64,000 nt of DNA from Bacteriovoracia bacterium. GTDB taxonomy: Bacteria > Bdellovibrionota > UBA1018 > JBFWNL01. The stretch is from assembly GCA_050251055.1 (NCBI GenBank), contig JBFWNL010000007.1:32001-96000 (forward strand), written 5' to 3'. Under the pieces are notes generated by a model. It searched no databases, was not told the origin of the DNA, and worked only from the letters and a program-made list of their open reading frames with translations. Below, one piece after another: positions 49,108 to 63,222 of this stretch; positions within the stretch are counted from its first letter, which is position 1; every line of letters starts with the position of its first letter. Made by a program: the position numbers and the translations under genes.

Positions 49108-50223
49108 ATGAGCTCATCGCAAAAAACGCTTCGCGGCGCGGTTATCGGCTACGGTTTCATCTCAGGCAAAGGCCATATCCCGGCCTACCTCGAGCGTGCT
49201 CAAAAGCAGCAGGATGTCCAGATCACGGCGGTGGCCGACATCTGCGAGGGCCGGCGCAAGATCGCGGCCGAAACCCTGCCTGGCGTGCGCGTTTACAGTG
49301 ACTACGAATCGCTGCTCGCCGGCGAAACCGGCAAGCTTGATTTCGTCGATATCTCCACGCCTCCTTGTGACCACGCGAAGATCGCGCACGCGGCGTTTGA
49401 TCGCGGCTTACACGTGCTTTGCGAAAAGCCCCTGACCACTTCCTTGGAAGACGCCCGTGCGCTTTTGAAACATGCTCAGGACGCCCAGCGCGTGCTTTTC
49501 CCTTGTCACAACTACAAGCATGCGCCCGTGGTGAAAGCTATTCGCGAGATCATCGACAGCGGCAAGATCGGCCGCGTGAAGTCGGTGGCGCTCAGCACCT
49601 ACCGCAACACGCACGCCAAGGGCGTGACCGAATGGAACACGCACTGGCGCCGCGAAAACCGCTACAGTGGCGGCGGCATCGCGATGGACCACGGTAGCCA
49701 TAGCTTTTATTTGATGTTCGATTGGCTGGGATCGTATCCCACCGCGGTCACGGCGAAGATGTCGACCCAAGGCACGAAGCCCGATGGTTCGCCCATGGAC
49801 ACGGAAGATAATTTCACCGCGACGCTCACGTTCCCTACGGGCTCGGCCCACGCCTACCTGACTTGGACGGCGGGCGTGCGCAAGGTCATTTACAGCATTC
49901 AAGGCGAGCGCGGCGCGGTCACCGTCGATGACGACGATCTCCAGCTGGCGACTATCGAAAAAACCTCCGGCCCCGACGTCGCCCAAGGCGCCGTGAAATG
50001 GAACGTCGAGAAGCGCTCGATCGCTTCGCATTGGATGGATGCGAGCCACGTAAGCTGGTTTAACTCGCTTTTTGATCAATTCAAGGGCGCCATCGCGCGC
50101 GGCGAATTCGTGGGAAAAGAAGCCCGCGAGTCGTATCTCTGCATCGAGCTCATCATGGCCGCTTACGCTTCGGCCGCCGATCGGTGCCAGGAACAGCCTC
50201 TTTTGGGCTTGCCCACCGCGTAA
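49108..50223 (+). CDS. Gfo/Idh/MocA NAD(P)-dependent oxidoreductase (inositol dehydrogenase-like)
   Basis: IGYGFIS, STPPCDH, CEKPL and GGGIAMDHGSH motifs. Confidence 0.88.
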   Translation: MSSSQKTLRGAVIGYGFISGKGHIPAYLERAQKQQDVQITAVADICEGRRKIAAETLPGVRVYSDYESLLAGETGKLDFVDISTPPCDHAKIAHAAFDRGLHVLCEKPLTTSLEDARALLKHAQDAQRVLFPCHNYKHAPVVKAIREIIDSGKIGRVKSVALSTYRNTHAKGVTEWNTHWRRENRYSGGGIAMDHGSHSFYLMFDWLGSYPTAVTAKMSTQGTKPDGSPMDTEDNFTATLTFPTGSAHAYLTWTAGVRKVIYSIQGERGAVTVDDDDLQLATIEKTSGPDVAQGAVKWNVEKRSIASHWMDASHVSWFNSLFDQFKGAIARGEFVGKEARESYLCIELIMAAYASAADRCQEQPLLGLPTA

Positions 50224-50355: not shown

Positions 50356-51723
50356 ATGGCTCAGCCAACGACCCAGTCGAGTACAAAGAAAAGCACGGCC
50401 CGCAACATTACACCCGCCAAAGGGAAGCTCGCGGTTCTCACTCCCGGCATGGGGGCGGTGGCCACTACTTTTTACGCCGGCGTCGAAGCCGTCAAGAAAG
50501 GCATCTCGCAGCCAATCGGTTCGTACACTCAGCTCGGCAAGATTCGTTTGGGCAAGCGTACGGAGAATCGTCATAAGCTGGTGAAGGATCTCGTACCGCT
50601 CGCTTCGCTCGATCAGCTGGTGTTCGGTGGCTGGGACATTTTCCCCGAGAACGCTTACGAAGCCGCGAAGAACGCGCAAGTGCTCGAAAAAGAATTGCTG
50701 GAAGCCGTGAAGGAACCGCTCTCGAAGATCAAGCCAATGGCGGCTGTTTTCGATCACGAGTTCGTGAAGCGCATCGACGGCCCGAACGTCAAGAAGGGCG
50801 CCAACAAGATGGAGCTCGCCGAACAGCTCCGCGCCGACATCCGTAATTTCATGAAAGACAACGGCTGCGATCGCGCCGTGATGGTTTGGTGCGCGTCCAC
50901 CGAAGTGTATACGCCGCCTACGGCCGTGCACCAGTCGGTGAAGGCTTTCGAAGAAGGCCTGCGTAACAACGATCCTTCGATCTCGCCCGCGCAGATCTAC
51001 ACGTACGCCGCGCTGAAAGAGCGGGTGCCCTACGCCAACGGATCGCCGAACGTGTCGGTCGAAATGCCCTGCCTGCAGGAGCTGGCCAACGAAATGGCTA
51101 CCCCGATCTCGGGTTCGGATTTCAAGACGGGTCAAACGTTGTTGAAGACCGTCATCGCTCCCGGCCTGCGCAACCGCCAGTTGGGCGTCGCTGGCTGGTA
51201 CAGCACCAACATCCTCGGTAACCGCGATGGCGAAGTGCTCGATGATCCGGGCTCGTTCAAGTCGAAGGAAGTCACCAAGAGCGGCGTGCTCACGGACATC
51301 TTCTCGGCGGAAATGTACCCCGAGCTCTACAAAGACATCCACCACGTGGTCCGCATCAATTACTACCCACCACGCGGCGATAATAAAGAAGGCTGGGACA
51401 ACATCGACATCTTCGGTTGGCTGGGCTACCCGATGCAGATCAAGGTGAACTTCCTCTGCCGCGACTCCATTTTGGCCGCCCCGATCGTGCTCGATCTGGC
51501 GCTGTTCATGGATCTCGCGTCGCGCGCCGAAATGCGCGGCATTCAAGAGTGGCTTTCGTTCTACTTCAAATCGCCGGTCGTGAAACCGGGCCTGCGCGCC
51601 GAGCATGATCTGTCGACGCAGCTCCTGAAGCTCGAGAACACGTTGCGCTTCTTCACCAACGAAGAGCTCATCAATCACTTGGGCCTCACGCATTACGGCA
51701 TCGACGAAGGCGAAAACGCCTAA
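50356..51723 (+). CDS. ino1: Myo-inositol-1(3)-phosphate synthase
   Basis: GGWDI, WCASTE, NGSPN, DFKTGQT, STNILGNRDG, GDNKE, RDSILAAP and SFYFKSP motifs. Confidence 0.93.
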   Translation: MAQPTTQSSTKKSTARNITPAKGKLAVLTPGMGAVATTFYAGVEAVKKGISQPIGSYTQLGKIRLGKRTENRHKLVKDLVPLASLDQLVFGGWDIFPENAYEAAKNAQVLEKELLEAVKEPLSKIKPMAAVFDHEFVKRIDGPNVKKGANKMELAEQLRADIRNFMKDNGCDRAVMVWCASTEVYTPPTAVHQSVKAFEEGLRNNDPSISPAQIYTYAALKERVPYANGSPNVSVEMPCLQELANEMATPISGSDFKTGQTLLKTVIAPGLRNRQLGVAGWYSTNILGNRDGEVLDDPGSFKSKEVTKSGVLTDIFSAEMYPELYKDIHHVVRINYYPPRGDNKEGWDNIDIFGWLGYPMQIKVNFLCRDSILAAPIVLDLALFMDLASRAEMRGIQEWLSFYFKSPVVKPGLRAEHDLSTQLLKLENTLRFFTNEELINHLGLTHYGIDEGENA

Positions 51724-51749: not shown

Positions 51750-52685
51750 CTAGCGACCCGAGTTCTTTAGGTATCGAATCACGTGTTCGACATCCATTCC
51801 TTTCGGCGGAGGGTTGCGTTCGAATAGGTTTCTAACGACCTCCTCTAGACGTCGTCCGTCCAGGAGACGGATAAAGTGGTATATGTAGGGGTCTTTCTTC
51901 GCTGCTAGTTCTTGGAGAGCTTCCACAATTTTGGGTTCTTGCGCTTTCGAGAAGTGAGATGCGTGCCCGGCTGCGACGTCATACACGGCTCGGAAAATAT
52001 CCGTAGGGGATGCTGTGTCGACGTTCATCAACCACGCTTCTCCGGCAAGAAACTTTTCGAGTGCTCCAGGGACAGCCTCTTCGATGACTACGGTTCCTTT
52101 GGGCTGGGTCTTGAATCGGAGTAAGCTCCGCGGGGTCATGGGTGCCTGGTTAGCAGACGCTTTGAATTCTCGGGCGCCGATGACGCCAAGAATTAGACTG
52201 GGAGCTTGGTCGATCACGAATGGGCTATCAAGTTCTGTCGCGATCGCGGTCGCCCGTTGTAAGATTGCAGACTCGGGGGTTCCGTCCCCCCTAAATGAAA
52301 AGGCGTGCACGACGTCGACGTCACCGCCAGCTCGGAAAGTGCCCGAACTGGACGAACCCACGATTTGTATACCGATGCCCTCTGACTCCAATCTGTCTAA
52401 GTAGGCCACGAAGGAGGGGTCGTAGACTTCGTGTGCATCTTGCCGTGATAAAATAACCGCCGAGCGCCCATTTTTCCCATAGGGAGCCAGCCGCTGCCTG
52501 GAGCGGGTAATCAGTTTCTCGGTTGAAGCGTTTAGGGGAAACAGGGAGTCGGCGGCACCATGGTCCAGGACTCTGCGGATTTTTTCTTCTGGGCAGCTTC
52601 CTAGGGCAGCGCTGTTTTGTAGGCAGAAATAGGCAAGCAGGAAAAGGCTAGGTAGGTTTCTTACGTTGATTGTAAATCGAGCCAT
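51750..52685 (-). CDS. Secreted protein with Pol-beta-type nucleotidyltransferase motif
   Basis: Signal peptide; IVGSSSSGTFRAGGDVDVV (hGS-x10-DxD) and a later FVID. Confidence 0.5.
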   Translation of the reverse strand: MARFTINVRNLPSLFLLAYFCLQNSAALGSCPEEKIRRVLDHGAADSLFPLNASTEKLITRSRQRLAPYGKNGRSAVILSRQDAHEVYDPSFVAYLDRLESEGIGIQIVGSSSSGTFRAGGDVDVVHAFSFRGDGTPESAILQRATAIATELDSPFVIDQAPSLILGVIGAREFKASANQAPMTPRSLLRFKTQPKGTVVIEEAVPGALEKFLAGEAWLMNVDTASPTDIFRAVYDVAAGHASHFSKAQEPKIVEALQELAAKKDPYIYHFIRLLDGRRLEEVVRNLFERNPPPKGMDVEHVIRYLKNSGR

Positions 52686-52846: not shown

Positions 52847-53779
52847 ATGATGCACATCGACGGAACCTTCTTTGAGTTAACCGGGGACTTGATCAACACG
52901 ATCATTTTGTTCGGTCTGCTCTTCGCCCTCATCATCGCTTACGTGATTCGTTTGGTCGTGGTGGGGCGCGCGCGCTTTGATCGCGTGGATCGGGAGGGCA
53001 CGGGTTTGCTTTTGAAGAAGGGCCCCATGGAGATGGTCTACTGGAGTTTGCAGCCTTTCGCCCGTTTGGCGGTGTTCTTTCGGGTGACGCCAAACATGCT
53101 TTCTTGGGCTTGTTTGGTTTTGGGGCTGGCGGCGGGGACTTGCTTGGCCTTCGGTCACTTTGGTTTCGGAGCGGCCTTCGCTACCGTGTCGGCGCTGCTC
53201 GACGCACTGGATGGCATGGTCGCGCGTATGACCGGACGGGCTTCCGACGCGGGCGAAGTGCTCGATGCCACCGTTGATCGCTACAGCGAATTTTTCTTTC
53301 TGGGTGGGCTTTGCGTTTATTATCGCGATATGTCCGAGCTGGTCGTGCTGACGCTGCTCGCGCTCATGGGCTCGTTCATGGTGAGCTACTCCACCGCCAA
53401 AGCGGAAGCGCTGCAGGTGAAGCCACCGCGCGGAAACATGCGGCGTACGGAGCGCGCGATTTTCATGACCGTGGGCGCCGCGCTCGCACCCATCAGCATT
53501 CCTTGGTTTGAGACGCCGGCGTACCTCAACGTGCCGGTCCCCGTGGGTTATCCCATGGTGCTTGCGGTGGGGATCATCGCCGTGCTGGCGAACTTCTCGG
53601 CGATCGAGCGCCTAGTGGCGATCGCGAAAGCCGTGCGCGCACGGGAAAACCAGGCACGTGAGCAGCTCAAGCAAGCGGAAGCGCTCACGGAAGCCCGGCA
53701 GGAGCTTGAGCAGATTGCCGGCTCTGACGACGCCGAAGCCGCGCCCGCGAACGCCACCAGCCGGTCGCCCAAGGTCTAG
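52847..53779 (+). CDS. CDP-alcohol phosphatidyltransferase (PI/PIP synthase-like)
   Basis: TPNML, DALDGMVARMTGRASDAGEVLDATVDR, MVSYSTAKAE and MRRTER motifs. Confidence 0.9.
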   Translation: MMHIDGTFFELTGDLINTIILFGLLFALIIAYVIRLVVVGRARFDRVDREGTGLLLKKGPMEMVYWSLQPFARLAVFFRVTPNMLSWACLVLGLAAGTCLAFGHFGFGAAFATVSALLDALDGMVARMTGRASDAGEVLDATVDRYSEFFFLGGLCVYYRDMSELVVLTLLALMGSFMVSYSTAKAEALQVKPPRGNMRRTERAIFMTVGAALAPISIPWFETPAYLNVPVPVGYPMVLAVGIIAVLANFSAIERLVAIAKAVRARENQAREQLKQAEALTEARQELEQIAGSDDAEAAPANATSRSPKV

Positions 53780-53846: not shown

Positions 53847-55214
53847 ATGGAAATCCAGCAGCCGAAAAATCAAAAGCCCGTCTTGAAAACCCCCGTGCCT
53901 GGACCGAAGAGCCAAGCGATTCGTGCCCGTGAGGAGCAAGCGCTTGCCCCCGGCTTACAAGGCTTTGCGCTCATGGCGGGCATCGTGGTCGACGAGGCTC
54001 GCGGCAGCGCCGTGACGGATGTCGACGGCAACACTTTTCTCGACATCATTGGCGGTATCGGCGTGAACGGACTGGGCCACTCACACCCTAAGTTCGTCGA
54101 AGCGATCCAGAAGCAGGTGGCGAAGGCTTCGGTGGGGAGCTTCACTTCGGAAGCGCGCGTGCGCTTGTTCGAGCAGCTTTCGAAAAATCGCCCGACCCCC
54201 TCGGTGTATCGCACGCAACTTTATTCCGGAGGCGCGGAAGCGGTGGAGAGCGCGCTGAGGCTCGCGAAGTGCCATACCGGCAAGTACGAGTTCATCAGTT
54301 TTTGGGGCGGGTTCCACGGCAAAACCATGGGTGTGCTATCGCTCATGGGCTCGGACTTTAAAAATGGCCTCGGCCCGATGGTGCCGGGTTCGCACATTGT
54401 CCCATACGCGAACTGTTATCGCTGTCCCTTTCAGTTAAAGAATCCAAGCTGCGGCATGGCCTGCGTGGAGCATCTGCGCAAACACGTTAAGCTGGGGACC
54501 GCGGGCGCGGTCGCGGGCATCATCGCCGAGCCTATGCAGGGCACGGCCGGAAATGTGATTCCGCCGAATGACTTCTTGCCCGCCGTGGCGGAAGTGGCGA
54601 AGGAGATCGGCGCGCTCATGATCATCGACGAAATGATCACGGGCTTTGGTCGCACGGGTAAGTACTGGGGCGCCCACCATTCGGGTGTGCAGGCCGATAT
54701 CGTCACGCTCGGTAAGCAATTCGGAGGTGGTTTTCCGATGTCGGCCGTGATGACTACGGATGACATCTCAAAGGCGCAGCCCTGGAGCGTTCCCTCGGGG
54801 TCTTCTTCCAGCTACGGCGGAAACCCGTTGGGCGCGGCGGCCGGCGCGGCGGCGCTCACAATCATCGAGGAAGAGGGATTGGTCGAGAACTCCCGTAAAA
54901 TGGGGGATTATTTCCTGGGCAAGCTCAAGCCCTTCGAGGAAAAATACTCCTTTATCGGCGAGGCGCGGGGAGCGGGACTTTTCCTGGCGCTCGAGATGGT
55001 TCGCGACAAGGTGACGAAGGAGCCGCTCAGCAAAAAGGCGTGTCAGCGTGTTTTCACCGAGTGCCTCAAGCGTGGATTGCTCACCATGGCTTACGCGCCA
55101 AGTTTCCGCATTCAACCCGCGATGTCCATCGATACCGGCACCATCGATGCCGCCGTGGGCGTGCTGGAAGAAGTTTTCGACTTAATGGAAAAAGAAAAAC
55201 TTTGGCAGGCGTAG
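53847..55214 (+). CDS. Class III PLP aminotransferase
   Basis: FHGKT, EPMQGTAG, DEMITGFGRTG, TLGKQFGGG and YGGNP motifs. Confidence 0.9.
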   Translation: MEIQQPKNQKPVLKTPVPGPKSQAIRAREEQALAPGLQGFALMAGIVVDEARGSAVTDVDGNTFLDIIGGIGVNGLGHSHPKFVEAIQKQVAKASVGSFTSEARVRLFEQLSKNRPTPSVYRTQLYSGGAEAVESALRLAKCHTGKYEFISFWGGFHGKTMGVLSLMGSDFKNGLGPMVPGSHIVPYANCYRCPFQLKNPSCGMACVEHLRKHVKLGTAGAVAGIIAEPMQGTAGNVIPPNDFLPAVAEVAKEIGALMIIDEMITGFGRTGKYWGAHHSGVQADIVTLGKQFGGGFPMSAVMTTDDISKAQPWSVPSGSSSSYGGNPLGAAAGAAALTIIEEEGLVENSRKMGDYFLGKLKPFEEKYSFIGEARGAGLFLALEMVRDKVTKEPLSKKACQRVFTECLKRGLLTMAYAPSFRIQPAMSIDTGTIDAAVGVLEEVFDLMEKEKLWQA

Positions 55215-55256: not shown

Positions 55257-58200
55257 CTAGTGCGCGTTCACTTCGCGCTCGTGCCCGGCCTCGAGGTAAG
55301 CTTCGGAACCGTGGCGATGGGTGCGCTCCCGGTATTCGCCGACGGTTTCCACGACCAAGTAGATCAGAATCGCGTAGGCCGAACCCCACATCAGATCCAG
55401 GATGTAGTGGTGGTTGAGGTACACGGCCGAAAAGCACATCAGCAAGTAGAAGAAGACGCAGAAACGCCGCAGGGATCCAAATTTGTATGCGTAAAGCACC
55501 GAGATCAGCGGATAAGCCACATGCAAAGATGGGATGGCGCCGAAGACGTCGGCTGCACGCCCGTACATCTCGCTAAAAAAGTGGGTGCCGAGGATCTGAT
55601 CGAAGCGCGCGGCGCCCGCCGAACTCGCGGGCACGTCGAGACGGGCGGGGCCTAATCCGTACTGAGCCACGTACCAGGGCGGCGCGGCCGCGTACCAGTA
55701 GTAGGTCGAGTAGCCCAGGCAGTTGGTCCAAAAGAACGTCCACATCATGCGGGGAGCCTTGCGCACGATCTCCCGCGCGGAATATTTATGCGTCCCGTGG
55801 AAGCCCAGCCAGAACATGAAGTAGGCGGCGCTGAAGACGAAGAGCGCGACGAAAACCAGGTAGGCGAAGCCGGTAACGAGGTCGAGCGCCGGATGCGTAT
55901 GTAGCTGCCACCACTCGTTAGGGGTAAGCACGCCCTTCGCGGTTTGGATGCCAAAGAAACGCTTATCGAAGAGATACGGCTCCTTCACGTGGATCGGCCC
56001 CCGCAGCCAGTCGGCATAAAAACGCTGGCTGTCGTAGACGATGCCCACGAGGAATACGGGTAGCAGGAACTTCAAGAACTCCCGGGTCGGTTTGCCGAGG
56101 TAAGCTAGCGCCAGCATCAATCCCGAAATGAGCAGGTGATCGGAGCGCAGGCCTCCGAGCGCAAGGAGGGAAAGCACGTACCCCGCGATCAGCCCCAGCG
56201 GCATCCAGCGCTCGCGCGGCGAAAGCGATCGCCACCACGCGGGCCAGCGGAAGATCCAGTCCCAGCCGCGGTAACGTAGCAAACGGCCCCAAACCTGGAG
56301 CGGCTCCATGATCCGGAAGCGAACTTTTGGGCGGGCATTTTCGATCTGCAGCTTTTCGGAGTCGCGATAGTAAAGGTAAGCCGGTAAGGCGATCATCGCC
56401 GCGAGCAGGGTGGTGATTTCACCCAAGACCGCGAGCTTACCGAAGCTAACGAAAGCCTGGTTGCCGGCGATGAGGAGCGATCCGTAACCGACGACCGTCG
56501 TGAGGCTCGCCATGCCGACGGCGCTGCCGGTGCTGCGGATTACCCCCAAGATGCTGCCCCGGCCATCGAGGCGGTAACGCTGGAAGATATTTACGCCGTA
56601 GTCGACGCCGATACCGAAGGTGATGGGGAGCGCGATGAAGTTCAGGAAATTGATCTTGAAATCGAAACCCAGGATCACGCCCGCCATCCAGGTTACCCCC
56701 AGGATCAGTGAGAAGAGGCAGAGCGAGATCAAGCGCGCGCTCCGGAAAAGCGCGATCACGAGCAGGATCACGGCGCCGAAGGCGAAGAGCGTGGCCCGAG
56801 GTCCGTCACGCTTAATGGCGTCGATCATGTCGGCGGTCACGGGGAATTGACCGGCTACCGGGATGCCGGGCGTGACCTTGTCCGCCACCGCGCGCAGGTC
56901 GCGGACGAACTGCAGGAGCTTGTTGCTGTCCTTCGTGGGGTTGGTCACCGGCGGTTCCACCAACACGAGATTGCCCACGGCCCCGCTTTTTTCCGTGAAC
57001 TTGCGCAATACCATCGGCGGCAGATCCTGGACGGACACCGGTACGTAGCTTTCCTCGTTCAGAAACTCGGACGCGAGTTTCTTTTCCTCGGGCGAGAGCG
57101 CGGACAGAATGCGCGGCGTGAGCTGCGACTTGATTTGGCGCAGGACCCGGATCTTTTCCGGCTGGCCCAAGGGCACGAAATCGTCGATTGAGTAAACGGA
57201 AGCGATCAGGCTCTGGCTGCCCTGAGACCTCTGCAGTTTCTTGGCTTCTTCCGCCACGCGCACGGCCTCCGCCTTGGTGTGCGGCATGATTACGGTGGGC
57301 GAGAGCCAGCGCTGGAAGACCTCGTCGATGCGTTTGGAGAGAAACGCCGAGCCCTGCTCGATGCTGCGTTTATCACGCAGTTTTTCCAGGTTGGTTTCCA
57401 GGATGGCGTCGCTGTAGCTAAAGAAGGTGATGAGCGAGACGACGGTCAGCGCGAAAGTCAGGCCCCAGATCGGGCGGGAAAACTTACGAATGAGCCAGAT
57501 GATGGGCTCGGCGAAAAACTGGAATGGCTTGGGGTCGCCAGGAAGCTCGCGCTTTACTCGGATCGGCAGGATGCGGTGCCAGACCGTGAGAAGGGCCGGC
57601 AGCAGCGTGTAGGCCGAAATCCAGCAGATCACCATGCCGATGAGGCCGATCACGCCGAATTGCTTGAAGCCGCGGAAGCTGGTGAGCATGAGCGATCCGT
57701 AGGAAAGCCCTGCCGCCAGCGCGGCGACCAGGGTCGCGGTATAGGTCTGAGTCAGGGCGAGGTGCACGCCGCGAATGTTTCCATTGCCCTTGCGGCGCTC
57801 CTCCATGTAGCGCGCGAGGTAGATAATGCCGAAGTTGATGCCGTTGCCGATGACGATCGAGCCCAGGAACGCGGAGTTGGCGTTAAGGTAGCCCACCGCG
57901 AAGAACGAAACGCCGAAGGTCGCCAGGGTGCCGATGAATAGGCTCACCATGAGCGCGAAGACCCCGCCGATCGTTCGGTAGTAAACGAGCATGAAAACCG
58001 TGCACAGGATTACTACGATGATCGTAGAGAGCTCGAGATCCTCCATGAGCGAATGATGCTCTTCGATGAGGTTCTGGACGCTGCCGGAAAACTTCACGTC
58101 CAGCCCCGCCCCGTATTTGGCTTCGTTGCCCTTCGGGTCGAGACCGGCGATAGCTTGATCGACGGCGTGACGAAGGCGTTCGGCCCCATCGATGCCTGAG

Positions 58201-58805
58201 GCGGCCCCCGGTAGATCGACGAGTAGAATACGGATCGTCTCGTCTTGATTGGCGTAATAGCCGTTCGGGAAGTGGGAGTAAGACGATGTCTTCTGGTTGT
58301 ATTTCGCCCGCATGGCGTCGAAATCGAGCTTGGGCTCCGGAATCTCGGTGGTCCGGAAAATATTCAAGGGGTTGTAGAGTTCTTTTTCGTAGCTGATGCG
58401 GTCGCGGATGTAGGTTCGGATGGAGGTGAGATCATCGATCTCCATGTAAAGTGCCTTGCGCGAATCAAAGAACTTCAGCTCATCGGTGATCTTATACTCG
58501 GTACCGGCGACGATGGACTTTGGGACTTGCTTCAGGCGGTCGACCAGATCGTGCAGGAATCGGAGACTGCCCTTGGGGTTGGGCGAAAAAATCAGCACCG
58601 CGAGATTCTCGGTGGACTCGAGCCGTTCGGTCACTTCCTTGAGATCGATGACGCTGCGAGCGTCCGTGGGCAAAAGCTCTTCGATGTTTGTCCGGAGATT
58701 CTTGTAAAGCTGGATCGAGTAATAGCCACCCCAGATAGCGATGAGCAACCCGATGATGCAGATCAGCCCGGCTCGTTTGAGCACTAGGCGGGAGTAGAAA
58801 TTCAC
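55257..58805 (-). CDS. MMPL/RND transporter fused to Aur1-like inositol-phosphoceramide synthase (PAP2) domain
   Basis: Two MMPL halves (GNGINFGI, GIGVDYGVNI); C-terminal AAAPPWY, AGAARFD, FGAIPSLH and YLNHHYILD motifs. Confidence 0.82.
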   Translation of the reverse strand: MNFYSRLVLKRAGLICIIGLLIAIWGGYYSIQLYKNLRTNIEELLPTDARSVIDLKEVTERLESTENLAVLIFSPNPKGSLRFLHDLVDRLKQVPKSIVAGTEYKITDELKFFDSRKALYMEIDDLTSIRTYIRDRISYEKELYNPLNIFRTTEIPEPKLDFDAMRAKYNQKTSSYSHFPNGYYANQDETIRILLVDLPGAASGIDGAERLRHAVDQAIAGLDPKGNEAKYGAGLDVKFSGSVQNLIEEHHSLMEDLELSTIIVVILCTVFMLVYYRTIGGVFALMVSLFIGTLATFGVSFFAVGYLNANSAFLGSIVIGNGINFGIIYLARYMEERRKGNGNIRGVHLALTQTYTATLVAALAAGLSYGSLMLTSFRGFKQFGVIGLIGMVICWISAYTLLPALLTVWHRILPIRVKRELPGDPKPFQFFAEPIIWLIRKFSRPIWGLTFALTVVSLITFFSYSDAILETNLEKLRDKRSIEQGSAFLSKRIDEVFQRWLSPTVIMPHTKAEAVRVAEEAKKLQRSQGSQSLIASVYSIDDFVPLGQPEKIRVLRQIKSQLTPRILSALSPEEKKLASEFLNEESYVPVSVQDLPPMVLRKFTEKSGAVGNLVLVEPPVTNPTKDSNKLLQFVRDLRAVADKVTPGIPVAGQFPVTADMIDAIKRDGPRATLFAFGAVILLVIALFRSARLISLCLFSLILGVTWMAGVILGFDFKINFLNFIALPITFGIGVDYGVNIFQRYRLDGRGSILGVIRSTGSAVGMASLTTVVGYGSLLIAGNQAFVSFGKLAVLGEITTLLAAMIALPAYLYYRDSEKLQIENARPKVRFRIMEPLQVWGRLLRYRGWDWIFRWPAWWRSLSPRERWMPLGLIAGYVLSLLALGGLRSDHLLISGLMLALAYLGKPTREFLKFLLPVFLVGIVYDSQRFYADWLRGPIHVKEPYLFDKRFFGIQTAKGVLTPNEWWQLHTHPALDLVTGFAYLVFVALFVFSAAYFMFWLGFHGTHKYSAREIVRKAPRMMWTFFWTNCLGYSTYYWYAAAPPWYVAQYGLGPARLDVPASSAGAARFDQILGTHFFSEMYGRAADVFGAIPSLHVAYPLISVLYAYKFGSLRRFCVFFYLLMCFSAVYLNHHYILDLMWGSAYAILIYLVVETVGEYRERTHRHGSEAYLEAGHEREVNAH

Positions 58806-58823: not shown

Positions 58824-59678
58824 GTGACGGCGTCCGCAAAGCAGTTTCAGCAATTAGCGTTGTGTTTCCGCCTATTTTGGTCTTTACTATTGGTCGTGAA
58901 TCTCTGTCAGTTACTCGTGCGCTGGACCAAGCGATTGGGCGAATTTATGCTCTTCGTCAACGAGACGATCAAAGTCTTTCCGGGTCTGTGGAAGCGCCGC
59001 GACTTGTTCTTCCGTCAGTGTGAATTTATCGGAGTGACTTCGACAGGTATTATTCTCGTGGCGGCGCTCTTTATGGGTGCTGTTTTAGGTTATCAACTTT
59101 ACGTGTCATTTCATTACTTTGGTGCCGAGGCTTTACTCGGCGGAAGCGTCGGGGTGGCACTCTTCCGGGAGCTGGCTCCCGTCATGGGCGCGGTGATGGT
59201 GACCGGGCGGGCGGGCGCGGCGATGGCCGCTGAGATCGCCAGTATGCGAATCTCCGAACAGATCGACGCGCTCGAGGTCATGGCGATCGATCCGATGGAA
59301 TACCTCGTGGCTCCGCGGGTGGTGGCGGGCGTTTGCATGATGCCGCTTCTGTCCGTCCTTTTCGCGGGCATCGCTTCGCTTGCGGCCGCGGGCGTGGCCT
59401 GCGGAGTGATGGGATTGAGCACGCCGGTCTATTGGAGTCAGTTTTCCAAAGTGGTCGATCCGATCGAGCTCACCCATTGCGTGACCAAGGGAGCGATGTT
59501 CGGGTTGGTGCTGACCTGGGTGGGTTGTTTCTATGGGTTTCGTGCGCACGGGGGCGCCTACGCGGTAGGCAAGGCCACACGTACGACGGTGGTGGTGAGC
59601 TGTCTCACGATTCTGCTCTCGGATTACGTGCTGACGTCGCTACTTCCATTTGGATTTGCCAGACTGATTGCCGAATGA
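58824..59678 (+). CDS. mlaE: MlaE-family ABC permease
   Basis: RELAPVMGAVMVTGRAGAAMAAEIASMRISEQIDALEVMAIDP; true start possibly GTG 58896. Confidence 0.9.
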   Translation: MTASAKQFQQLALCFRLFWSLLLVVNLCQLLVRWTKRLGEFMLFVNETIKVFPGLWKRRDLFFRQCEFIGVTSTGIILVAALFMGAVLGYQLYVSFHYFGAEALLGGSVGVALFRELAPVMGAVMVTGRAGAAMAAEIASMRISEQIDALEVMAIDPMEYLVAPRVVAGVCMMPLLSVLFAGIASLAAAGVACGVMGLSTPVYWSQFSKVVDPIELTHCVTKGAMFGLVLTWVGCFYGFRAHGGAYAVGKATRTTVVVSCLTILLSDYVLTSLLPFGFARLIAE

Positions 59679-59706
59679 CCGATTGCAGAATAGAAAGAGT
59701 ACGACT

Positions 59707-61197
59707 ATGGCAGGCGAAAACATCCGAACCGTAAAAATCAAAGTGGGCCTCTTCTCCTTGGCCGGACTGGCGCTGATCGGCGTGATCACCGTCTTCGTGA
59801 ACGATCGCCCCTTCTGGTGGCGGGGGTGCGAGTTGGTGCACGTGAACATCGAGGATGCCACGGGCCTAAAGACGAAATCCCCCATCCGTTCGCTCGGGTT
59901 GCAGATCGGGTACCTTCATTCGGTCGAGCTCTTTCAGCAGCAGGTCCGTTTGGGGATTTGCATCACCGCGCCGGTGGAAGTGCTGCCGGACACGCGCGCC
60001 TATGTGAAGGGCGAAGGTTTCTTGGGCGACAAATTCGTGGAGCTAAAGCCCGTGAAGTACGTTGGGCAATCGCGCGATGAGACGTTGAACGACGCAGCTC
60101 CCTCGCAGACCTCGACTCCCGCGCCGGCGCAAACCTGGGCACCCAGCCGGCCGATCCACCCATTGCTTTGGGCGATGGGGTGGGGCGTGGACGCGGCTTG
60201 GGCGGCCAAAACCAACGTGAACGTGGCCGAGGCGAAGGATAGCCGCAAGGAGATCCCGGTCGGTGAAAAGAGCCAAGACGTGCAGGAGTTGGTGAACGAG
60301 GTCAACGGCCTCGTGGGCGAACTCTCCGTGCTCACGAACAATCTCAAAACGTCGCTCAACCCGGTCGACATGCAGCGCACGATGCAGAAGTTGAATCGTA
60401 CGCTTGAGAACGCGGCGAAAACGCTTTCGCCGGAAGGCAATCTCACCACTACGGCCCAACGCGCGCTCGCGAAACTCGAAGACGCCATCGAGCAGATGCG
60501 CGACATGGTGACGCGAATCAACCAGGGCGAAGGCTCGGTGGGCATGGTGATCAACGACCCCAGCTATGCCGAGGAGCTGCGCGATGCCCTCCGGAATTTG
60601 AATTCGCTGCTTTCGAAGGTGAGCGGCGTACGTTTCCAGGTGGATGTCGGAGCGGAAGCTTTGCCGGCTTACAGCGATGCGCGGGGCTGGTTCCGGTTGG
60701 GCATCTGGCCGTCGGCCGACCGCTACTATCTGCTCGGTTTGTCGGTCGATCCGCGCGGGAAAACCAATGTGCTGGACGTCACCACCACGGCGGGCACGGC
60801 TAGCACCACGACTCGTTCGGTAACCACTGAGCAAGGAGGCATCCTGCTCACCGCGATGTTGGGTAAGGTGTTTTGGCACCGGCTTGATTTTTCGGCCGGC
60901 ATCTATCACGGGGACGCCACGCTGGGCGTGGCTTTCAATCTGGGACCGCAGACCAATGAGGAGCTGCTCCGGGTGGAGGCGCAGGGGTTTAGCGGCGCGG
61001 ATGGAAGGGGCGGCCACCAGTTCGACGGCCGCGCGAACGCCATCTGGTTTCCGTCGCAGAGCCCTTACCTGAAGACGATTTACATCCGCGGCGGGGTGGA
61101 TTCGGTTCGCCAGGTAAACGGAAAGTTTTCGTATTCGGTGGGCGCCGGCATCTCGTTCAACGACCGGGACATCAAGATGCTCTTCGCGCTCCGCTAG
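59707..61197 (+). CDS. mlaD: MlaD/MCE protein with helical stalk and C-terminal beta-rich domain
   Basis: KVGLF TM; DATGLKTKSPIRSLGLQIG, GFLGDKFVEL and GEGSVGMVIND motifs. Confidence 0.85.
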   Translation: MAGENIRTVKIKVGLFSLAGLALIGVITVFVNDRPFWWRGCELVHVNIEDATGLKTKSPIRSLGLQIGYLHSVELFQQQVRLGICITAPVEVLPDTRAYVKGEGFLGDKFVELKPVKYVGQSRDETLNDAAPSQTSTPAPAQTWAPSRPIHPLLWAMGWGVDAAWAAKTNVNVAEAKDSRKEIPVGEKSQDVQELVNEVNGLVGELSVLTNNLKTSLNPVDMQRTMQKLNRTLENAAKTLSPEGNLTTTAQRALAKLEDAIEQMRDMVTRINQGEGSVGMVINDPSYAEELRDALRNLNSLLSKVSGVRFQVDVGAEALPAYSDARGWFRLGIWPSADRYYLLGLSVDPRGKTNVLDVTTTAGTASTTTRSVTTEQGGILLTAMLGKVFWHRLDFSAGIYHGDATLGVAFNLGPQTNEELLRVEAQGFSGADGRGGHQFDGRANAIWFPSQSPYLKTIYIRGGVDSVRQVNGKFSYSVGAGISFNDRDIKMLFALR

Positions 61198-61368: not shown

Positions 61369-62517
61369 ATGAGTCAAAATTTAATTTCCGTCCGTGCGCT
61401 CAGCGCTTGGTCGTTTGCCGCCTTTTTGCTGGCGGGTTGCACGCAACCGATTCCCGCGTATATCGCGCCTCAGTTGCGGGGCCCGAGTTCTCCGGGAGAG
61501 CAGAGCTTTCACCGCGAAGGGCGCAGTGAATCCTATAACGTCGCGGCCGCGCAGGCGAAAATCGATATCTTGTTCATGGTGGACAACTCCGGCTCGATGG
61601 AAAACGAACAAAACATATTGGCCACGTCGTTCGGCCAATTCATCAATCAGTTCATTACGCGCAATTTGGATTTTCACGTGGGTGTGGTCACGACCGACGT
61701 GACTCCTTTAAGTGGCAATTCCAATTACTGGAGCGGGACGAACGCCAACAGCGCCTTTTACGGGTACCAAAGTCCGGGGCCGGGCCGACTGTTGTCCCGT
61801 ACCGCTGAACGCTATCTGCAAAATACATCGCAGAACCTGGTTTCCCAGTTCCAGGCCAACGTTAACGTCGGAACTCGGGGAAGCGGCAATGAGCAGGGGT
61901 TGGAGTCCATCTATGAAACCTTGGACCCGCTGCTATCGGTGCCGACCGCGCCCAACGCCGGTTTCGTGCGTAATGATGCTTTGTTATCGCTGGTGATTGT
62001 TTCGGATGAAGACGAGTGCCTGAACGCGGCGGCCCATTCGATGCCGCCGGTGGAAACGGCCCAACAACGGATCGACCGCACTTTGGCCCGGATTCAGGCG
62101 GCGAAGGGCAACGTGGCGAACATGCATCGGCTCGATTACATCATTAACCTGGATACCCCGCCCACGAACCAAACTTATCCGGCGGGGCTGCTTTACTATC
62201 CGCAGATTTATCTGATGGCGGCGGCTCAAACCATGGCCACGCCGATCAACATCGGAGCCAACTTCTCGGCGCCGCTCGTGGCGCTGGGAGATGAATTGGC
62301 CGTCCAGGCCGAGCGGCAGTTCCAGCTCTCGGCGATTCCGATCGTGGATACGATCGATGTCCTGATTGACGGTGCCATCGAGATCCCGCACAGCGCGGAC
62401 AACGGCTGGAGTTACCTGCCGGCGCCCGCGAACCGGGTTCAGCTCAACGGCAACGCCCTCTTGCAGGCGCGCGGGCACGTGTTGACGATCTCGTACGAGA
62501 CGCTGGTGGCGGACTAA
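61369..62517 (+). CDS. VWA-domain lipoprotein
   Basis: Lipobox LAG|C; DILFMVDNSGSM MIDAS, GVVTTD and IVSDEDE motifs. Confidence 0.8.
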   Translation: MSQNLISVRALSAWSFAAFLLAGCTQPIPAYIAPQLRGPSSPGEQSFHREGRSESYNVAAAQAKIDILFMVDNSGSMENEQNILATSFGQFINQFITRNLDFHVGVVTTDVTPLSGNSNYWSGTNANSAFYGYQSPGPGRLLSRTAERYLQNTSQNLVSQFQANVNVGTRGSGNEQGLESIYETLDPLLSVPTAPNAGFVRNDALLSLVIVSDEDECLNAAAHSMPPVETAQQRIDRTLARIQAAKGNVANMHRLDYIINLDTPPTNQTYPAGLLYYPQIYLMAAAQTMATPINIGANFSAPLVALGDELAVQAERQFQLSAIPIVDTIDVLIDGAIEIPHSADNGWSYLPAPANRVQLNGNALLQARGHVLTISYETLVAD

Positions 62518-62529
62518 TCCTTTTGAGAG

Positions 62530-63222
62530 CTAGGCGACGATCGCGCCTTTGAGGCTGTCGAAGATGAATTTGCCAATCTTCGATAGCTCTTCCGGTTCGA
62601 GCTGATTAAATCTCAAGCCCAAGCCGTTATTCCCCTTCCAGACGACGGTGCTCATGGTGTTGAGTCCGCCCAGATCGGGGATCTGGGTATGCAAGGTTTC
62701 GTTCACCGACCCGAGGTCCTCGGTGGTTTCCACGAAGGCCCCTCCCACGGATAGGTTCGAAATAGTCGCTTCCTTGCCGTTGCCGAGGCGGATCGGGATC
62801 CGCGTTTTAATCCGGCGAAACTTGCGCTTTTCGTTGCCATCGTACTTGGATTGCGTGTTGAGCACGTACTGAATGGCGAGCGTTAGGCTCTGCTCGTTCG
62901 TTGGCAGCTTGAGAATCACTAGCTGTTCGTATTTGATCATGTTGACCAAAACCTCATTCGTGGTCTGGCCAGCCAGGAAAACCACCGGCAAGTTGGCTTG
63001 CGAGTTTTTCAGCTGGTCGACCAGGCGGTCTCCGTTGAGATCTGGCAACTGGTATTCGGTGATCAGTATGTCGGGGCGATTTTTTTCAAATAAGGACAGC
63101 GCGGCTTGCCCATTGGAAGCCATGATGGCGTTGAAGCCATGCTTGATTAGAATTCGGCAGACGTCGACTTTAACGCCGGTGTCCGGGCTCACCACGAGCA
63201 CTTTCGTCTGTTTTGCTGTCAT
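62530..63222 (-). CDS. Pseudo-receiver plus PilZ domain protein
   Basis: REC fold with Glu at the phospho-Asp position (LITEYQLP); RKFRR and NLSVGG PilZ motifs. Confidence 0.8.
   Translation of the reverse strand: MTAKQTKVLVVSPDTGVKVDVCRILIKHGFNAIMASNGQAALSLFEKNRPDILITEYQLPDLNGDRLVDQLKNSQANLPVVFLAGQTTNEVLVNMIKYEQLVILKLPTNEQSLTLAIQYVLNTQSKYDGNEKRKFRRIKTRIPIRLGNGKEATISNLSVGGAFVETTEDLGSVNETLHTQIPDLGGLNTMSTVVWKGNNGLGLRFNQLEPEELSKIGKFIFDSLKGAIVA

What the first reader, a model, noticed from the sequence alone, without database searches (positions are those of the whole stretch)
55257..58805. MMPL/RND lipid exporter fused to an Aur1-type inositol-phosphoceramide synthase
Seen: one uninterrupted 1182-aa ORF. 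About 810 aa form a two-repeat MMPL transporter. The last about 320 aa carry AAAPPWY, AGAARFD, FGAIPSLH (nt 55521-55544) and YLNHHYILD (nt 55395-55421). Established: these match the His/His/Asp catalytic motifs of yeast Aur1 and of the Bacteroides inositol-sphingolipid synthase, which move phosphoinositol from PI(P) onto ceramide; MMPL proteins export lipids. Inference: head-group transfer and export are physically coupled in one protein. I know of no described fusion of this kind.
Basis: partly seen in the sequence, partly recalled or inferred. Interest (0 to 1): 0.88.

Follow-up and report, generated by a model that had tools for sequence, protein, structure and literature searches.

The report
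Lipid exporter fused to inositol-ceramide synthase
One gene of a predatory-type soil bacterium joins a membrane lipid pump to an enzyme that looks like the yeast and gut-bacterial inositol-sphingolipid synthase; in its relatives the same two genes sit side by side, which points to a candidate for the still unknown transporter of bacterial sphingolipids.

Summary
Window 55257-58805 (-) is one stop-free 1182-aa frame. Residues 1-825 are an HpnN-like MMPL transporter. Residues 835-1182 are an Aur1-type PAP2_3 domain whose His/His/Asp triad aligns with yeast Aur1.

The fusion is the rare form of a common two-gene module.
- Of 69 genomes of the same class with a strong synthase match, 68 have it as a separate gene. 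In 20 of those 68 the orthologous MMPL gene lies directly upstream on the same strand, often with overlapping stop and start.
- Fused relatives exist in two deeply separated lineages.
- Two runs, each assembled on its own, give the same junction.

The gene sits in a conserved cluster: myo-inositol-phosphate synthase, a PIP-synthase-like transferase, a Gfo/Idh/MocA oxidoreductase, a class III aminotransferase, and MlaE plus a long MlaD. The genome also has a serine palmitoyltransferase-like gene.

Best reading: phosphoinositol is transferred to ceramide at the periplasmic face, tethered to a pump that moves the lipid outward. Activity, substrate and direction are untested. I rate it a new variant of known kinds, interest 0.64.

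The parts
55257..58805 (-). Whole fused ORF, 1182 aa plus stop, GTG start
   Evidence: The N-terminus is conserved in P0003 from residue 1.
56331..58805 (-). MMPL/RND part, aa 1-825: 12 predicted membrane helices and two large loops after helices 1 and 7
   Evidence: Pfam MMPL E 2.2e-33. TIGR03480 HpnN E 9.5e-79, 265 bits, below its cut-off of 752. PDB HpnN 5khn E 2.1e-28. AF2 model pLDDT 91.5; Foldseek top hit HpnN, E 6.8e-27, TMt 0.69.
56304..56330 (-). Junction, aa 826-834: the only internal segment with pLDDT below 50. It lies where the MMPL stop and the synthase start sit in split relatives
55260..56303 (-). Aur1-type PAP2_3 phosphoinositol-transferase-like domain, aa 835-1182: one amphipathic helix followed by about 8 membrane helices
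   Evidence: NF052609 PhinosDhcerSyn E 1.2e-55, 189 bits, cut-off 480. Aur1 9ivc/9vj3 E 1.3e-16. AF2 pLDDT 92.8, pTM 0.89. Foldseek finds Aur1 at E 1.5e-10, TM 0.62/0.65; the next best is a PAP2 phosphatase at E 0.03.
55521..55544 (-). FGAIPSLH motif; H1095 aligns with Aur1 His255
   Evidence: P, S and H are invariant in 63 aligned homologues.
55395..55421 (-). YLNHHYILD motif; H1133 and D1137 align with Aur1 His294 and Asp298
   Evidence: H, H and D are invariant in 63 aligned homologues.
50356..51723 (+). myo-inositol-1-phosphate synthase
   Evidence: PF07994 E 1.8e-98 and PF01658 E 5.7e-33.
52847..53779 (+). CDP-alcohol phosphatidyltransferase whose best matches are (archaetidyl/phosphatidyl)inositol-phosphate synthases
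   Evidence: PF01066 E 2.3e-12. NF040950 E 1.7e-33, NF052561 (BT1523 type) E 8.2e-29, NF045883 E 2.6e-27, all below their cut-offs.
53847..55214 (+). Class III aminotransferase, conserved in the cluster
   Evidence: PF00202 E 2.1e-92. No specific equivalog. 66-75% identical copies lie beside the synthase genes of relatives.
49108..50223 (+). Gfo/Idh/MocA oxidoreductase, conserved in the cluster
   Evidence: Copies 61-75% identical in relatives.
58824..59678 (+). MlaE-type lipid ABC permease, divergent from the fused gene
   Evidence: PF02405 E 2.1e-69 and TIGR00056 above its cut-off. Found next to the MMPL orthologue in 10 of 15 sampled loci.
59668..61197 (+). Long (509 aa) MlaD/MCE protein with a weak PqiB-like stretch
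   Evidence: PF02470 E 1.7e-09. TIGR00996 and NF008070 (PqiB, residues 203-287) below their cut-offs.

Best explanation
The ORF is a real fusion of two genes that in related Bdellovibrionota lie head to tail.

Parts. The N-terminal 825 residues are an HpnN-like MMPL (RND superfamily) lipid transporter. The C-terminal 348 residues are an Aur1/BT_1522-like phosphoinositol transferase.

Inferred mechanism, in steps:
1. The neighbouring synthase makes inositol phosphate.
2. The CDP-alcohol transferase builds phosphatidylinositol phosphate, which yields PI.
3. Ceramide comes from the genome's serine palmitoyltransferase and the adjacent GNAT-type acyltransferase.
4. The C-terminal domain has its His/His/Asp triad at the periplasmic face of the inner membrane. 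It moves the phosphoinositol head group, possibly an aminated derivative, from the glycerolipid to ceramide.
5. The tethered MMPL part takes the product from the outer leaflet and passes it towards the outer membrane, perhaps together with the divergently encoded MlaE and long MlaD system.

Shown here: the continuous frame, the two families, the intact triad, the fold, the gene neighbourhood, and the conserved pairing.

Inferred: the enzyme activity, the acceptor lipid, which side the active site faces, and the direction and cargo of transport.
For: Frame and families.

Triad: aligned with Aur1 His255/His294/Asp298 (PMC12122681 passages) and invariant in 63 homologues.

Fold: Aur1 is the only strong structural match (E 1.5e-10 and 3.3e-10). 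Lipid phosphatases and SMSr score E 0.03 or worse.

Substrates:
- MIPS and a PIP-synthase-like gene lie within 5 kb.
- A serine palmitoyltransferase-like gene (NF047600, 502 bits, the best of its matches) with an adjacent GNAT-like ORF lies on contig C6.
- The Spt-like gene is present in 112 of 127 genomes of the class.
- 65 of 69 genomes with the synthase also have MIPS.

Coupling to the transporter:
- In 21 of 69 synthase-bearing genomes (G000 included) the MMPL orthologue is directly upstream on the same strand. In 8 more one gene lies between them.
- Stop and start overlap or nearly touch in 6 inspected pairs.
- 68 of 69 synthase genomes have the MMPL orthologue.
- The MMPL orthologue lies within 12 kb of MIPS in 35 genomes.
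- Fused forms occur at 58% identity (P0003), 48% (P0137) and 37% (the high-GC P0009 group), each aligned end to end.

Topology:
- 12 helices in the MMPL part put the junction on the same side as the N-terminus.
- The junction loop, aa 810-867, holds 13 K+R against 6 D+E.
- Aur1 has both ends in the cytosol and its triad near the luminal surface.
- In the model H1095 begins helix 1094-1109, and H1133/D1137 lie between helices 1113-1129 and 1135-1181.

No squalene-hopene cyclase was found in the 93.5%-complete genome, so hopanoids are an unlikely cargo.
Against: - No activity, lipid or localisation data exist for this protein or any close relative.
- The synthase domain scores 189 bits against a curated equivalog cut-off of 480, and the MMPL part 265 against 752. 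Neither is a certified orthologue of the characterised protein.
- 33 of 69 synthase genomes show no MMPL orthologue within 12 kb on the same contig. Many of those contigs are short.
- In a second class of the phylum the synthase clusters with the oxidoreductase, transferase and aminotransferase, but an MMPL lies near it in only 1 of 8 loci.
- 41 genomes have the MMPL orthologue without the synthase, so its cargo cannot be only this enzyme's product.
- No PgpA-type PIP phosphatase lies in the cluster; one PgpA homologue lies elsewhere.
- The conserved oxidoreductase and aminotransferase have no role in a plain IPC pathway.
- The relative placement of the two parts in the model could not be inspected; only pTM 0.70 is given.
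Confidence: 0.6

Rival explanations
1. The coupling is real but runs the other way. The MMPL part supplies or clears substrates for the enzyme rather than exporting its product. It could bring ceramide or PI to the periplasmic leaflet, or remove the diacylglycerol left behind. Alternatively it is a general sphingolipid or ceramide transporter to which the synthase is merely docked.
For: The MMPL orthologue occurs in 109 of 127 genomes of the class, 41 of them without the synthase. The Spt-like gene is in 112 of 127. One MMPL orthologue (P0138, 51% identical) is fused to an SRPBCC/Polyketide_cyc2 lipid-binding domain instead. Transporters for bacterial sphingolipids are reported as unidentified (PMC11087976 passages).
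Against: The characterised relative HpnN is described as moving hopanoids for the outer membrane (PMC11713862 passage). MmpL3's outward role is recalled, not checked here. The gene order, MMPL then synthase with overlapping stop and start, says nothing about direction either way.
Confidence: 0.17
2. The C-terminal domain is not a ceramide phosphoinositol transferase. It could transfer another head group or use another acceptor (a glycerolipid, a phosphono- or amino-lipid), or act as a lipid phosphate phosphatase such as the missing PIP phosphatase.
For: The score is well below the NCBIfam equivalog cut-off (189 against 480). PAP2 enzymes include many phosphatases, and weak fold matches to them are listed. 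No PgpA-type phosphatase lies in the cluster. The oxidoreductase and aminotransferase are conserved beside the synthase in two classes. Related PAP2_3 domains are fused to a fatty-acid desaturase, an FAD oxidoreductase and PF03706. Sphingophosphonolipids in Bacteriovorax are recalled from memory, not from a call.
Against: Aur1 is by far the best sequence and fold match. Outside the triad the domain shares the Aur1 stretch around PAAPPWY...GLARxD. The synthase co-occurs with MIPS in 65 of 69 genomes. Public annotation pipelines call some close homologues inositol phosphorylceramide synthase (names listed; these are not tested functions).
Confidence: 0.15
3. The fusion has no meaning of its own. 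It is a neutral read-through, or a sequence error, that joined two overlapping genes of an operon. The protein may be misfolded, cleaved, or accompanied by internal initiation at Met833.
For: 68 of 69 class genomes, and every other synthase-bearing genome in the phylum sample, keep the genes apart. In split relatives stop and start overlap by 4 to 13 nt or lie 14 to 66 nt apart, so a small indel or a lost stop would fuse them. The internal Met is retained.
Against: Two separately assembled runs give the same junction, though both come from one study and may be the source. There is no homopolymer at the junction. Fused forms persist at 58%, 48% and 37% identity over the full length, which implies long survival under selection. 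The topology is compatible: an even helix count before the junction and a positively charged linker.
Confidence: 0.08

Closest known systems
Saccharomyces cerevisiae Aur1, catalytic subunit of inositol phosphorylceramide synthase (PDB 9ivc, 9vj3/9vj4)
   Same: PAP2_3 fold with about 8 membrane helices. The His/His/Asp triad aligns residue for residue. Aur1 is the best sequence match (E 1.3e-16) and fold match (TM 0.60-0.74) among solved structures.
   Different: About 25% identity. Aur1 needs the Kei1 subunit (PMC12122681), and no Kei1 was looked for here. Aur1 is a Golgi enzyme, not fused to a transporter. Aureobasidin sensitivity is unknown.
Bacteroides thetaiotaomicron BT_1522 PI-dihydroceramide synthase and its cluster BT_1522-BT_1526 (Heaver et al. 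2022, PMC9246714)
   Same: A bacterial Aur1 homologue clustered with MIPS and a PIP synthase. NCBIfam's BT_1522-based model is the best specific match for the C-terminal domain (E 1.2e-55), and the BT_1523-based model is among the best for the transferase.
   Different: Scores are below the equivalog cut-offs. There is no PgpA-type phosphatase and no GtrA-like gene in the cluster. The present cluster adds an MMPL transporter, MlaE/MlaD, a Gfo/Idh/MocA oxidoreductase and a class III aminotransferase. The passages I read mention no MMPL or fusion (0 occurrences of either word); the supplements were not seen.
Burkholderia HpnN hopanoid transporter (PDB 5khn, 6wu0), MMPL family of the RND superfamily
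   Same: Best sequence and fold match for residues 1-825, with 12 helices and two periplasmic domains.
   Different: 17-19% identity in the structural alignment, and below the TIGR03480 cut-off. The genome shows no squalene-hopene cyclase. The gene context is inositol and sphingolipid, not hopanoid.
Other MMPL lipid exporters (MmpL3, MmpL4/5, sterol transporter BstA)
   Same: Same family and fold. Each is a dedicated exporter encoded beside the biosynthetic genes of its lipid (BstA: PMC11713862 passage; the others recalled).
   Different: None of these is described as covalently fused to the enzyme that makes its cargo, in the papers I could search.
Mla/MCE lipid trafficking systems (MlaFEDB, PqiB)
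   Same: MlaE and an MCE-domain protein are encoded divergently from the fused gene, and next to its orthologues in 10 of 15 sampled loci.
   Different: No MlaF ATPase, MlaB or MlaC gene is adjacent in the window. The MCE protein is 509 aa, far longer than the 146-position NCBIfam MlaD model (TIGR04430) that it matches only at residues 21-128. Any link to the MMPL part is inference.

Membership tests
Aur1-type inositol phosphorylceramide synthase (PAP2_3) | Pfam PAP2_3 match above the gathering score | tested here: met
   49.6 bits against 27, residues 966-1150.
Aur1-type inositol phosphorylceramide synthase (PAP2_3) | Catalytic triad His255/His294/Asp298 (Aur1 numbering) | tested here: met
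   H1095, H1133 and D1137 align with them (my count; triad from PMC12122681). All three are invariant in 63 homologues.
Aur1-type inositol phosphorylceramide synthase (PAP2_3) | Fold: eight membrane helices with a six-helix catalytic core, closer to Aur1 than to lipid phosphatases | tested here: met
   AF2 pLDDT 92.8. Foldseek gives Aur1 E 1.5e-10 and 3.3e-10, TM 0.60-0.74; PAP2 phosphatase 5jki E 0.03; SMSr E 0.11.
Aur1-type inositol phosphorylceramide synthase (PAP2_3) | Transfers phosphoinositol from PI to ceramide | not testable with these tools
   Context only: MIPS, PIP-synthase-like and Spt-like genes are present.
Aur1-type inositol phosphorylceramide synthase (PAP2_3) | Requires a Kei1-like regulatory subunit (fungal complex) | not tested
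   The requirement is stated in PMC12122681. No search for Kei1 was made.
NCBIfam NF052609 phosphoinositol dihydroceramide synthase (BT_1522 equivalog) | Score at or above the curated cut-off of 480 bits | tested here: not met
   189.1 bits, E 1.2e-55. None of the 127 class genomes reaches the cut-off either.
HpnN hopanoid transporter (TIGR03480 / NF052374) | Score at or above the curated cut-offs (751.85 and 1100 bits) | tested here: not met
   265.4 and 151.5 bits.
HpnN hopanoid transporter (TIGR03480 / NF052374) | Hopanoid biosynthesis in the same genome | tested here: not met
   No PF13243 match in G000, which is 93.5% complete.
MMPL family, RND superfamily | Two MMPL repeats, 12 membrane helices, two periplasmic loops | tested here: met
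   Pfam MMPL with 2 stretches. The AF2 helices and Foldseek matches to HpnN and MmpL3/4/5 have TMt 0.56-0.76.
MMPL family, RND superfamily | Proton-driven lipid export | not testable with these tools
   The stretch PITFGIGVDYGVN in helix 10 is identical in the 37%-identical P0009. Its role as a proton relay is recalled from MmpL3 work and was not checked.
Bacteroides-type inositol lipid cluster (BT_1522-BT_1526) | MIPS, PIP synthase, PgpA-type PIP phosphatase and synthase encoded together | tested here: inconclusive
   MIPS is present. The transferase's best matches are PIP synthases but fall below their cut-offs. There is no PgpA in the window, and one PgpA homologue at G000:C3:343421-343846.

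The most novel reading that the evidence does not exclude
The HpnN-like MMPL of this cluster is the missing exporter of bacterial sphingolipids. It would take a phosphosphingolipid, made at the periplasmic face by its tethered (here) or co-translated (elsewhere) Aur1-like synthase, and hand it to the divergently encoded MlaE and long-MCE system for passage to the outer membrane. In addition, the head group may not be plain inositol. The cluster's conserved Gfo/Idh/MocA oxidoreductase and class III aminotransferase could turn it into an amino-inositol (inosamine), giving a zwitterionic sphingolipid not yet described.
Probability: 0.3. Interest if true: 0.85.

Novelty: new variant of a known kind. 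Interest (0 to 1): 0.64.

Why it matters
Bacterial sphingolipids end up in the outer membrane. The laboratory that mapped their synthesis states that no flippase or transporter for them has been identified (PMC11087976, passage).

A covalent fusion acts as a Rosetta-stone clue. Here it is backed by a head-to-tail gene pair in 20 further genomes and by a second, distant fused lineage. Together these nominate a specific MMPL transporter family as the partner of sphingolipid head-group synthesis, which makes the question testable by knock-out and membrane fractionation.

It also extends inositol-lipid clusters, so far characterised in Bacteroidota, to Bdellovibrionota: about half of one class (69 of 127 genomes) and a second family elsewhere in the phylum. 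It further flags two conserved extra enzymes that may alter the head group.

If the active site faces the periplasm as inferred, the protein would show lipid synthesis and extraction joined on the outer face of the inner membrane.

Tried and rejected
1. I first read the tblastn table as showing fused genes in L011, L016 and L019. Frame-by-frame inspection showed two separate frames in each, so none of the 10 genome-contig loci is fused.

2. I guessed that the roughly 1.4-kb gene between MMPL and synthase in 8 genomes was the aminotransferase. tblastn found no cluster protein in that gap in L033 and L040, so the guess is rejected and the gap gene is unidentified.

3. Complex prediction on residues 440-832 against 833-1182 returned 'no answer', score 0.00. 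This is neither support nor evidence against.

4. Trees of the synthase domain, meant to decide whether the close fused forms share one origin:
- FastTree on 130 rows placed the window beside the standalone P0019 (support 94, not starred), with P0003 and P0004 in an unresolved basal position.
- A 45-row IQ-TREE quick tree was mostly unresolved (30 of 42 forks open). My slice of P0137 gave a branch of length 10, so its placement is meaningless.
- The AU test did not finish in 288 s.
- Rows in those trees were C-terminal slices of fused proteins plus 120 or 38 of the 120 listed standalone hits. P0053, among others, was left out of the alignments by my choice.
- The number of fusion events within the close group is therefore open. 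Only the separation from the high-GC group is supported (100*).

5. A Kyte-Doolittle scan was too crude to count helices in the synthase part. I used the AF2 secondary structure instead.

7. PDB and NCBIfam comparisons gave the aminotransferase and the oxidoreductase no specific function.

8. Literature. I found no paper on an MMPL-PAP2 fusion, on HpnN or RND proteins with sphingolipids, on inositol sphingolipids in Bdellovibrionota or Bacteriovorax, or on inosamine lipids. Only the held library was searched, and supplements are closed. Supplementary Table 5 of PMC9246714 (distribution of the cluster) was not seen and might list non-Bacteroidota homologues.

9. The KBL-like gene on contig C5 was never scanned against NCBIfam, because my reference for it was wrong.

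Full report
**What is in the sequence.**
Window 55257-58805 on the minus strand is one 1182-aa frame with a GTG start and no internal stop.
- Pfam finds MMPL (E 2.2e-33, two stretches) and PAP2_3 (E 5.6e-13, residues 966-1150, above the gathering score).
- For the first 800 or so residues, NCBIfam's best matches are HpnN-type RND transporters (TIGR03480, E 9.5e-79).
- For residues 881-1155 the best match is the Bacteroides phosphoinositol-dihydroceramide synthase model NF052609 (E 1.2e-55).
- Both scores are far below the curated equivalog cut-offs: 265 against 752 bits and 189 against 480.

**The C-terminal domain.**
Among all solved structures, only yeast Aur1 matches it by sequence (E 1.3e-16). 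By my count along the printed alignment, H1095, H1133 and D1137 align with Aur1 His255, His294 and Asp298. That is the catalytic triad described in PMC12122681 (passages). The three residues are invariant in an alignment of 63 homologues.

An AlphaFold2 model of residues 833-1182 is confident (pLDDT 92.8, pTM 0.89). Its only strong Foldseek matches in the PDB are two Aur1 entries (E 1.5e-10 and 3.3e-10, TM 0.60-0.74). PAP2 lipid phosphatases and the sphingomyelin-synthase-related protein follow at E 0.03 and worse. So 'Aur1-type' describes the fold and active site fairly. Whether it is an orthologue of BT_1522 in function was not shown.

**The N-terminal part.**
The full-length model (pLDDT 91.5, pTM 0.70) has 12 long helices in residues 12-824, with large loops after helices 1 and 7. 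Its best structural matches are the HpnN hopanoid transporters (E 6.8e-27, TMt about 0.69), followed by MmpL4/5/3. The genome (3.77 Mb, 93.5% complete) shows no squalene-hopene cyclase, so hopanoids are an unlikely cargo. This is the only strong MMPL-family gene in the genome; the other Pfam hits lie in frames of about 1050-1100 aa and are weaker.

**Is the fusion real?**
- The only internal low-confidence stretch of the model is residues 826-834, exactly at the junction.
- Logan contigs of two runs cover 55900-56800 without any difference, at depths 6.85 and 14.6. The runs come from one study of a landfill metagenome, and both may be the source of this DNA. This shows the frame is reproducible across two assemblies. 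It is not independent biological replication.
- The junction DNA has no homopolymer.
- In the 5.8-billion-protein collection, a search with the C-terminal region restricted to proteins of 650-2069 aa gave 13 hits among 4751 candidates. Eight carry MMPL plus PAP2_3: P0002 (the window's own protein), P0003 and P0004 (65% and 60% identical in the domain) and P0006-P0010 (41-46%, high GC).
- P0003 aligns with the window protein end to end at 58% identity, and P0009 at 37%.
- In the 1.84-billion representative library, only two of the best 150 hits cover both parts: P0137 (1149 aa, 48%, MMPL plus PAP2_3 by Pfam) and P0009.

The architecture therefore exists in at least two deeply separated lineages, but it is rare.

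**The usual state is a split gene pair.**
- The same C-terminal query found 2550 shorter proteins at E 1e-20 or better among 8000 scored candidates. The best 120 are 290-391 aa long and 56-69% identical.
- In the 127 genomes held for the window's class, 75 have some NF052609 match and 69 have one below E 1e-30 (G000 included). All lie in frames of 145-634 aa except G000's 1185.
- In a 401-genome sample of the phylum, 69 genomes have a match at E 1e-35 or better. Again only G000 has a long frame.
- The MMPL part has 42-58% identical orthologues in 109 of 127 class genomes, as frames of about 815-900 aa.
- Combining the coordinates for the 69 synthase-bearing genomes: in 21 (G000 included) the MMPL orthologue lies directly upstream on the same strand, with 27-225 nt between the matched regions; in 8 a gap of about 1.4 kb separates them; in 7 they lie within 12 kb in another arrangement; in 33 no MMPL orthologue is on the same contig within 12 kb. 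Many of those contigs are only a few kb long, so this last figure is an upper bound.
- Six adjacent pairs were inspected frame by frame. The synthase start overlaps the MMPL stop by 4 nt (L019, L025) or 13 nt (L024), or follows it by 14-66 nt (L016, L011, L023).
- The window's fusion keeps the synthase's own Met at residue 833. A small change at such a junction is enough to join the frames.
- Titles of related loci name Bacteriovoracaceae, Oligoflexia and Bdellovibrionia MAGs (lineage).

**Neighbourhood.**
In order, the window carries:
- a Gfo/Idh/MocA oxidoreductase (49108-50223);
- myo-inositol-1-phosphate synthase (50356-51723, PF07994 E 1.8e-98);
- an unassigned 311-aa ORF on the other strand;
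- a CDP-alcohol phosphatidyltransferase (52847-53779) whose three best NCBIfam matches are all inositol-phosphate transferases, including the BT_1523 type, all below their cut-offs;
- a class III aminotransferase (53847-55214);
- the fused gene;
- divergently, MlaE (58824-59678) and a 509-aa MlaD/MCE protein (59668-61197).

I fetched 15 loci of relatives because MMPL and MIPS or the synthase shared a contig there. They are therefore not a random sample, and at least L038 and L043 duplicate contigs. The order MlaD-MlaE, then divergently MMPL-synthase, then convergently aminotransferase-transferase-MIPS-oxidoreductase recurs. Counts out of 15: MIPS 15, the transferase 12, the synthase 11, MlaE/MlaD 10, the oxidoreductase 9, the aminotransferase 8.

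In 8 loci around the synthase in another family of the phylum, the oxidoreductase, transferase and aminotransferase accompany it in 6. MIPS does so in 1 and an MMPL orthologue in 1.

Across the class, 65 of 69 synthase genomes have MIPS; 12 genomes have MIPS without the synthase.

**Ceramide supply.**
G000 has an alpha-oxoamine synthase whose best NCBIfam match is serine palmitoyltransferase (NF047600, E 8.6e-151, 502 bits against a cut-off of 640). That is ahead of BioF and Kbl models. It is followed by an ORF with weak GNAT-type matches, the family type I recall for bacterial ceramide synthase; this was not verified here. The Spt-like gene occurs in 112 of 127 class genomes at E 1e-110 or better.

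**How it most likely works.**
Shown: the two families, the intact triad, the Aur1-like fold, the inositol-lipid gene context, the widespread head-to-tail pairing, and the repeated fusion.

Inferred, topology:
- Twelve helices place the end of the MMPL part on the same side as its N-terminus.
- The linker region 810-867 is rich in Lys and Arg (13 against 6 acidic residues), as expected for a cytoplasmic loop.
- Aur1 has both termini in the cytosol and its triad near the opposite surface.
- In the model H1095 opens helix 1094-1109, and H1133/D1137 lie between helices 1113-1129 and 1135-1181, five and seven helices after the linker.
- The triad should therefore face the periplasm, the same side as the transporter's two large loops.

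[quoted passage not shown] The product would be picked up by the MMPL part for delivery outward. This fits the report that the last ceramide-forming step in Caulobacter is periplasmic, that sphingolipids are trafficked to the outer membrane, and that their transporters are unknown (PMC11087976, passages).

**What speaks against this, or stays open.**
- The MMPL orthologue is present in 41 class genomes without the synthase, so its cargo is probably broader than this enzyme's product.
- In the second family the synthase is usually not near an MMPL.
- There is no PIP phosphatase in the cluster; one PgpA homologue lies on contig C3.
- The aminotransferase is 66-75% identical across loci and the oxidoreductase 61-75%. 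The aminotransferase is thus better conserved than the synthase itself (50-64%). Neither has a place in the Bacteroides pathway. They may modify the inositol, but PDB and NCBIfam comparisons give them no specific function.
- The trees could not decide whether the window, P0003 and P0004 share one fusion event.

**Comparison with what is known.**
The enzyme resembles Aur1 and BT_1522. The transporter resembles HpnN and MmpL proteins. The cluster resembles the Bacteroides inositol-lipid cluster described by Heaver et al. (PMC9246714, passages), but adds a transporter, an MCE system and two further enzymes. I found no paper that describes an MMPL-PAP2 fusion, an MMPL linked to sphingolipids, or inositol sphingolipids in Bdellovibrionota. 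These searches cover only the held library.

**Verdict.**
It is a new variant of known kinds. It matters mainly because it nominates a candidate sphingolipid exporter.

Noticed in passing
window 49108-50223 (+) and 53847-55214 (+); L033-L047, L057-L063: A Gfo/Idh/MocA oxidoreductase and a class III aminotransferase are conserved parts of the inositol-lipid cluster in two classes of the phylum. The aminotransferase is 66-75% identical across loci, more conserved than the synthase. They have no counterpart in the Bacteroides cluster and might aminate the inositol head group.
   Followed up: partly
window 58824-61197 (+): MlaE and a 509-aa MCE protein (MlaD domain plus a weak PqiB-like stretch) are encoded divergently from the fused gene, with no MlaF, MlaB or MlaC beside them. 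The same pair flanks the MMPL orthologue in 10 of 15 sampled loci. Only 18 nt separate the two annotated starts, so one of the starts may be wrong.
   Followed up: partly
window 51750-52685 (-): A 311-aa ORF with an N-terminal hydrophobic stretch and no Pfam or NCBIfam match sits between MIPS and the transferase. In relatives those two genes are directly adjacent, so this looks like an insertion specific to this genome.
   Followed up: no
G000:C6:128554-129891 and downstream (L009 9573-12018): The serine palmitoyltransferase-like gene is followed by a GNAT-like ORF, a candidate bacterial ceramide synthase. Phytoene desaturase and synthase genes (CrtI, CrtB) lie about 3-4.5 kb upstream.
   Followed up: partly
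P0005, P0011, P0012-P0014; P0138: The same PAP2_3 domain occurs fused to an FAD/NAD oxidoreductase, to a fatty-acid desaturase and to PF03706. A 51%-identical MMPL orthologue is fused to an SRPBCC/Polyketide_cyc2 lipid-binding domain instead of the synthase.
   Followed up: no
P0006-P0010 C-termini: The high-GC fused proteins carry about 150-200 extra C-terminal residues of odd, charged, low-complexity sequence. These look like gene calls running on in a stop-poor frame rather than a real domain.
   Followed up: no
L033 2537-3905; L040 6482-7856: In one genus (8 genomes) a gene of about 1.4 kb lies between the MMPL gene and the synthase gene. It matches none of the window's cluster proteins.
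   Followed up: no
window 40579-41412 (-), 61369-62517 (+), 62530-63222 (-): A flagellin gene, a MIDAS/vWA adhesin-like gene with weak matches to Bdellovibrio adhesin and CglD models, and a response-regulator-PilZ protein lie nearby. This is in keeping with a motile member of the Bdellovibrionota.
   Followed up: no
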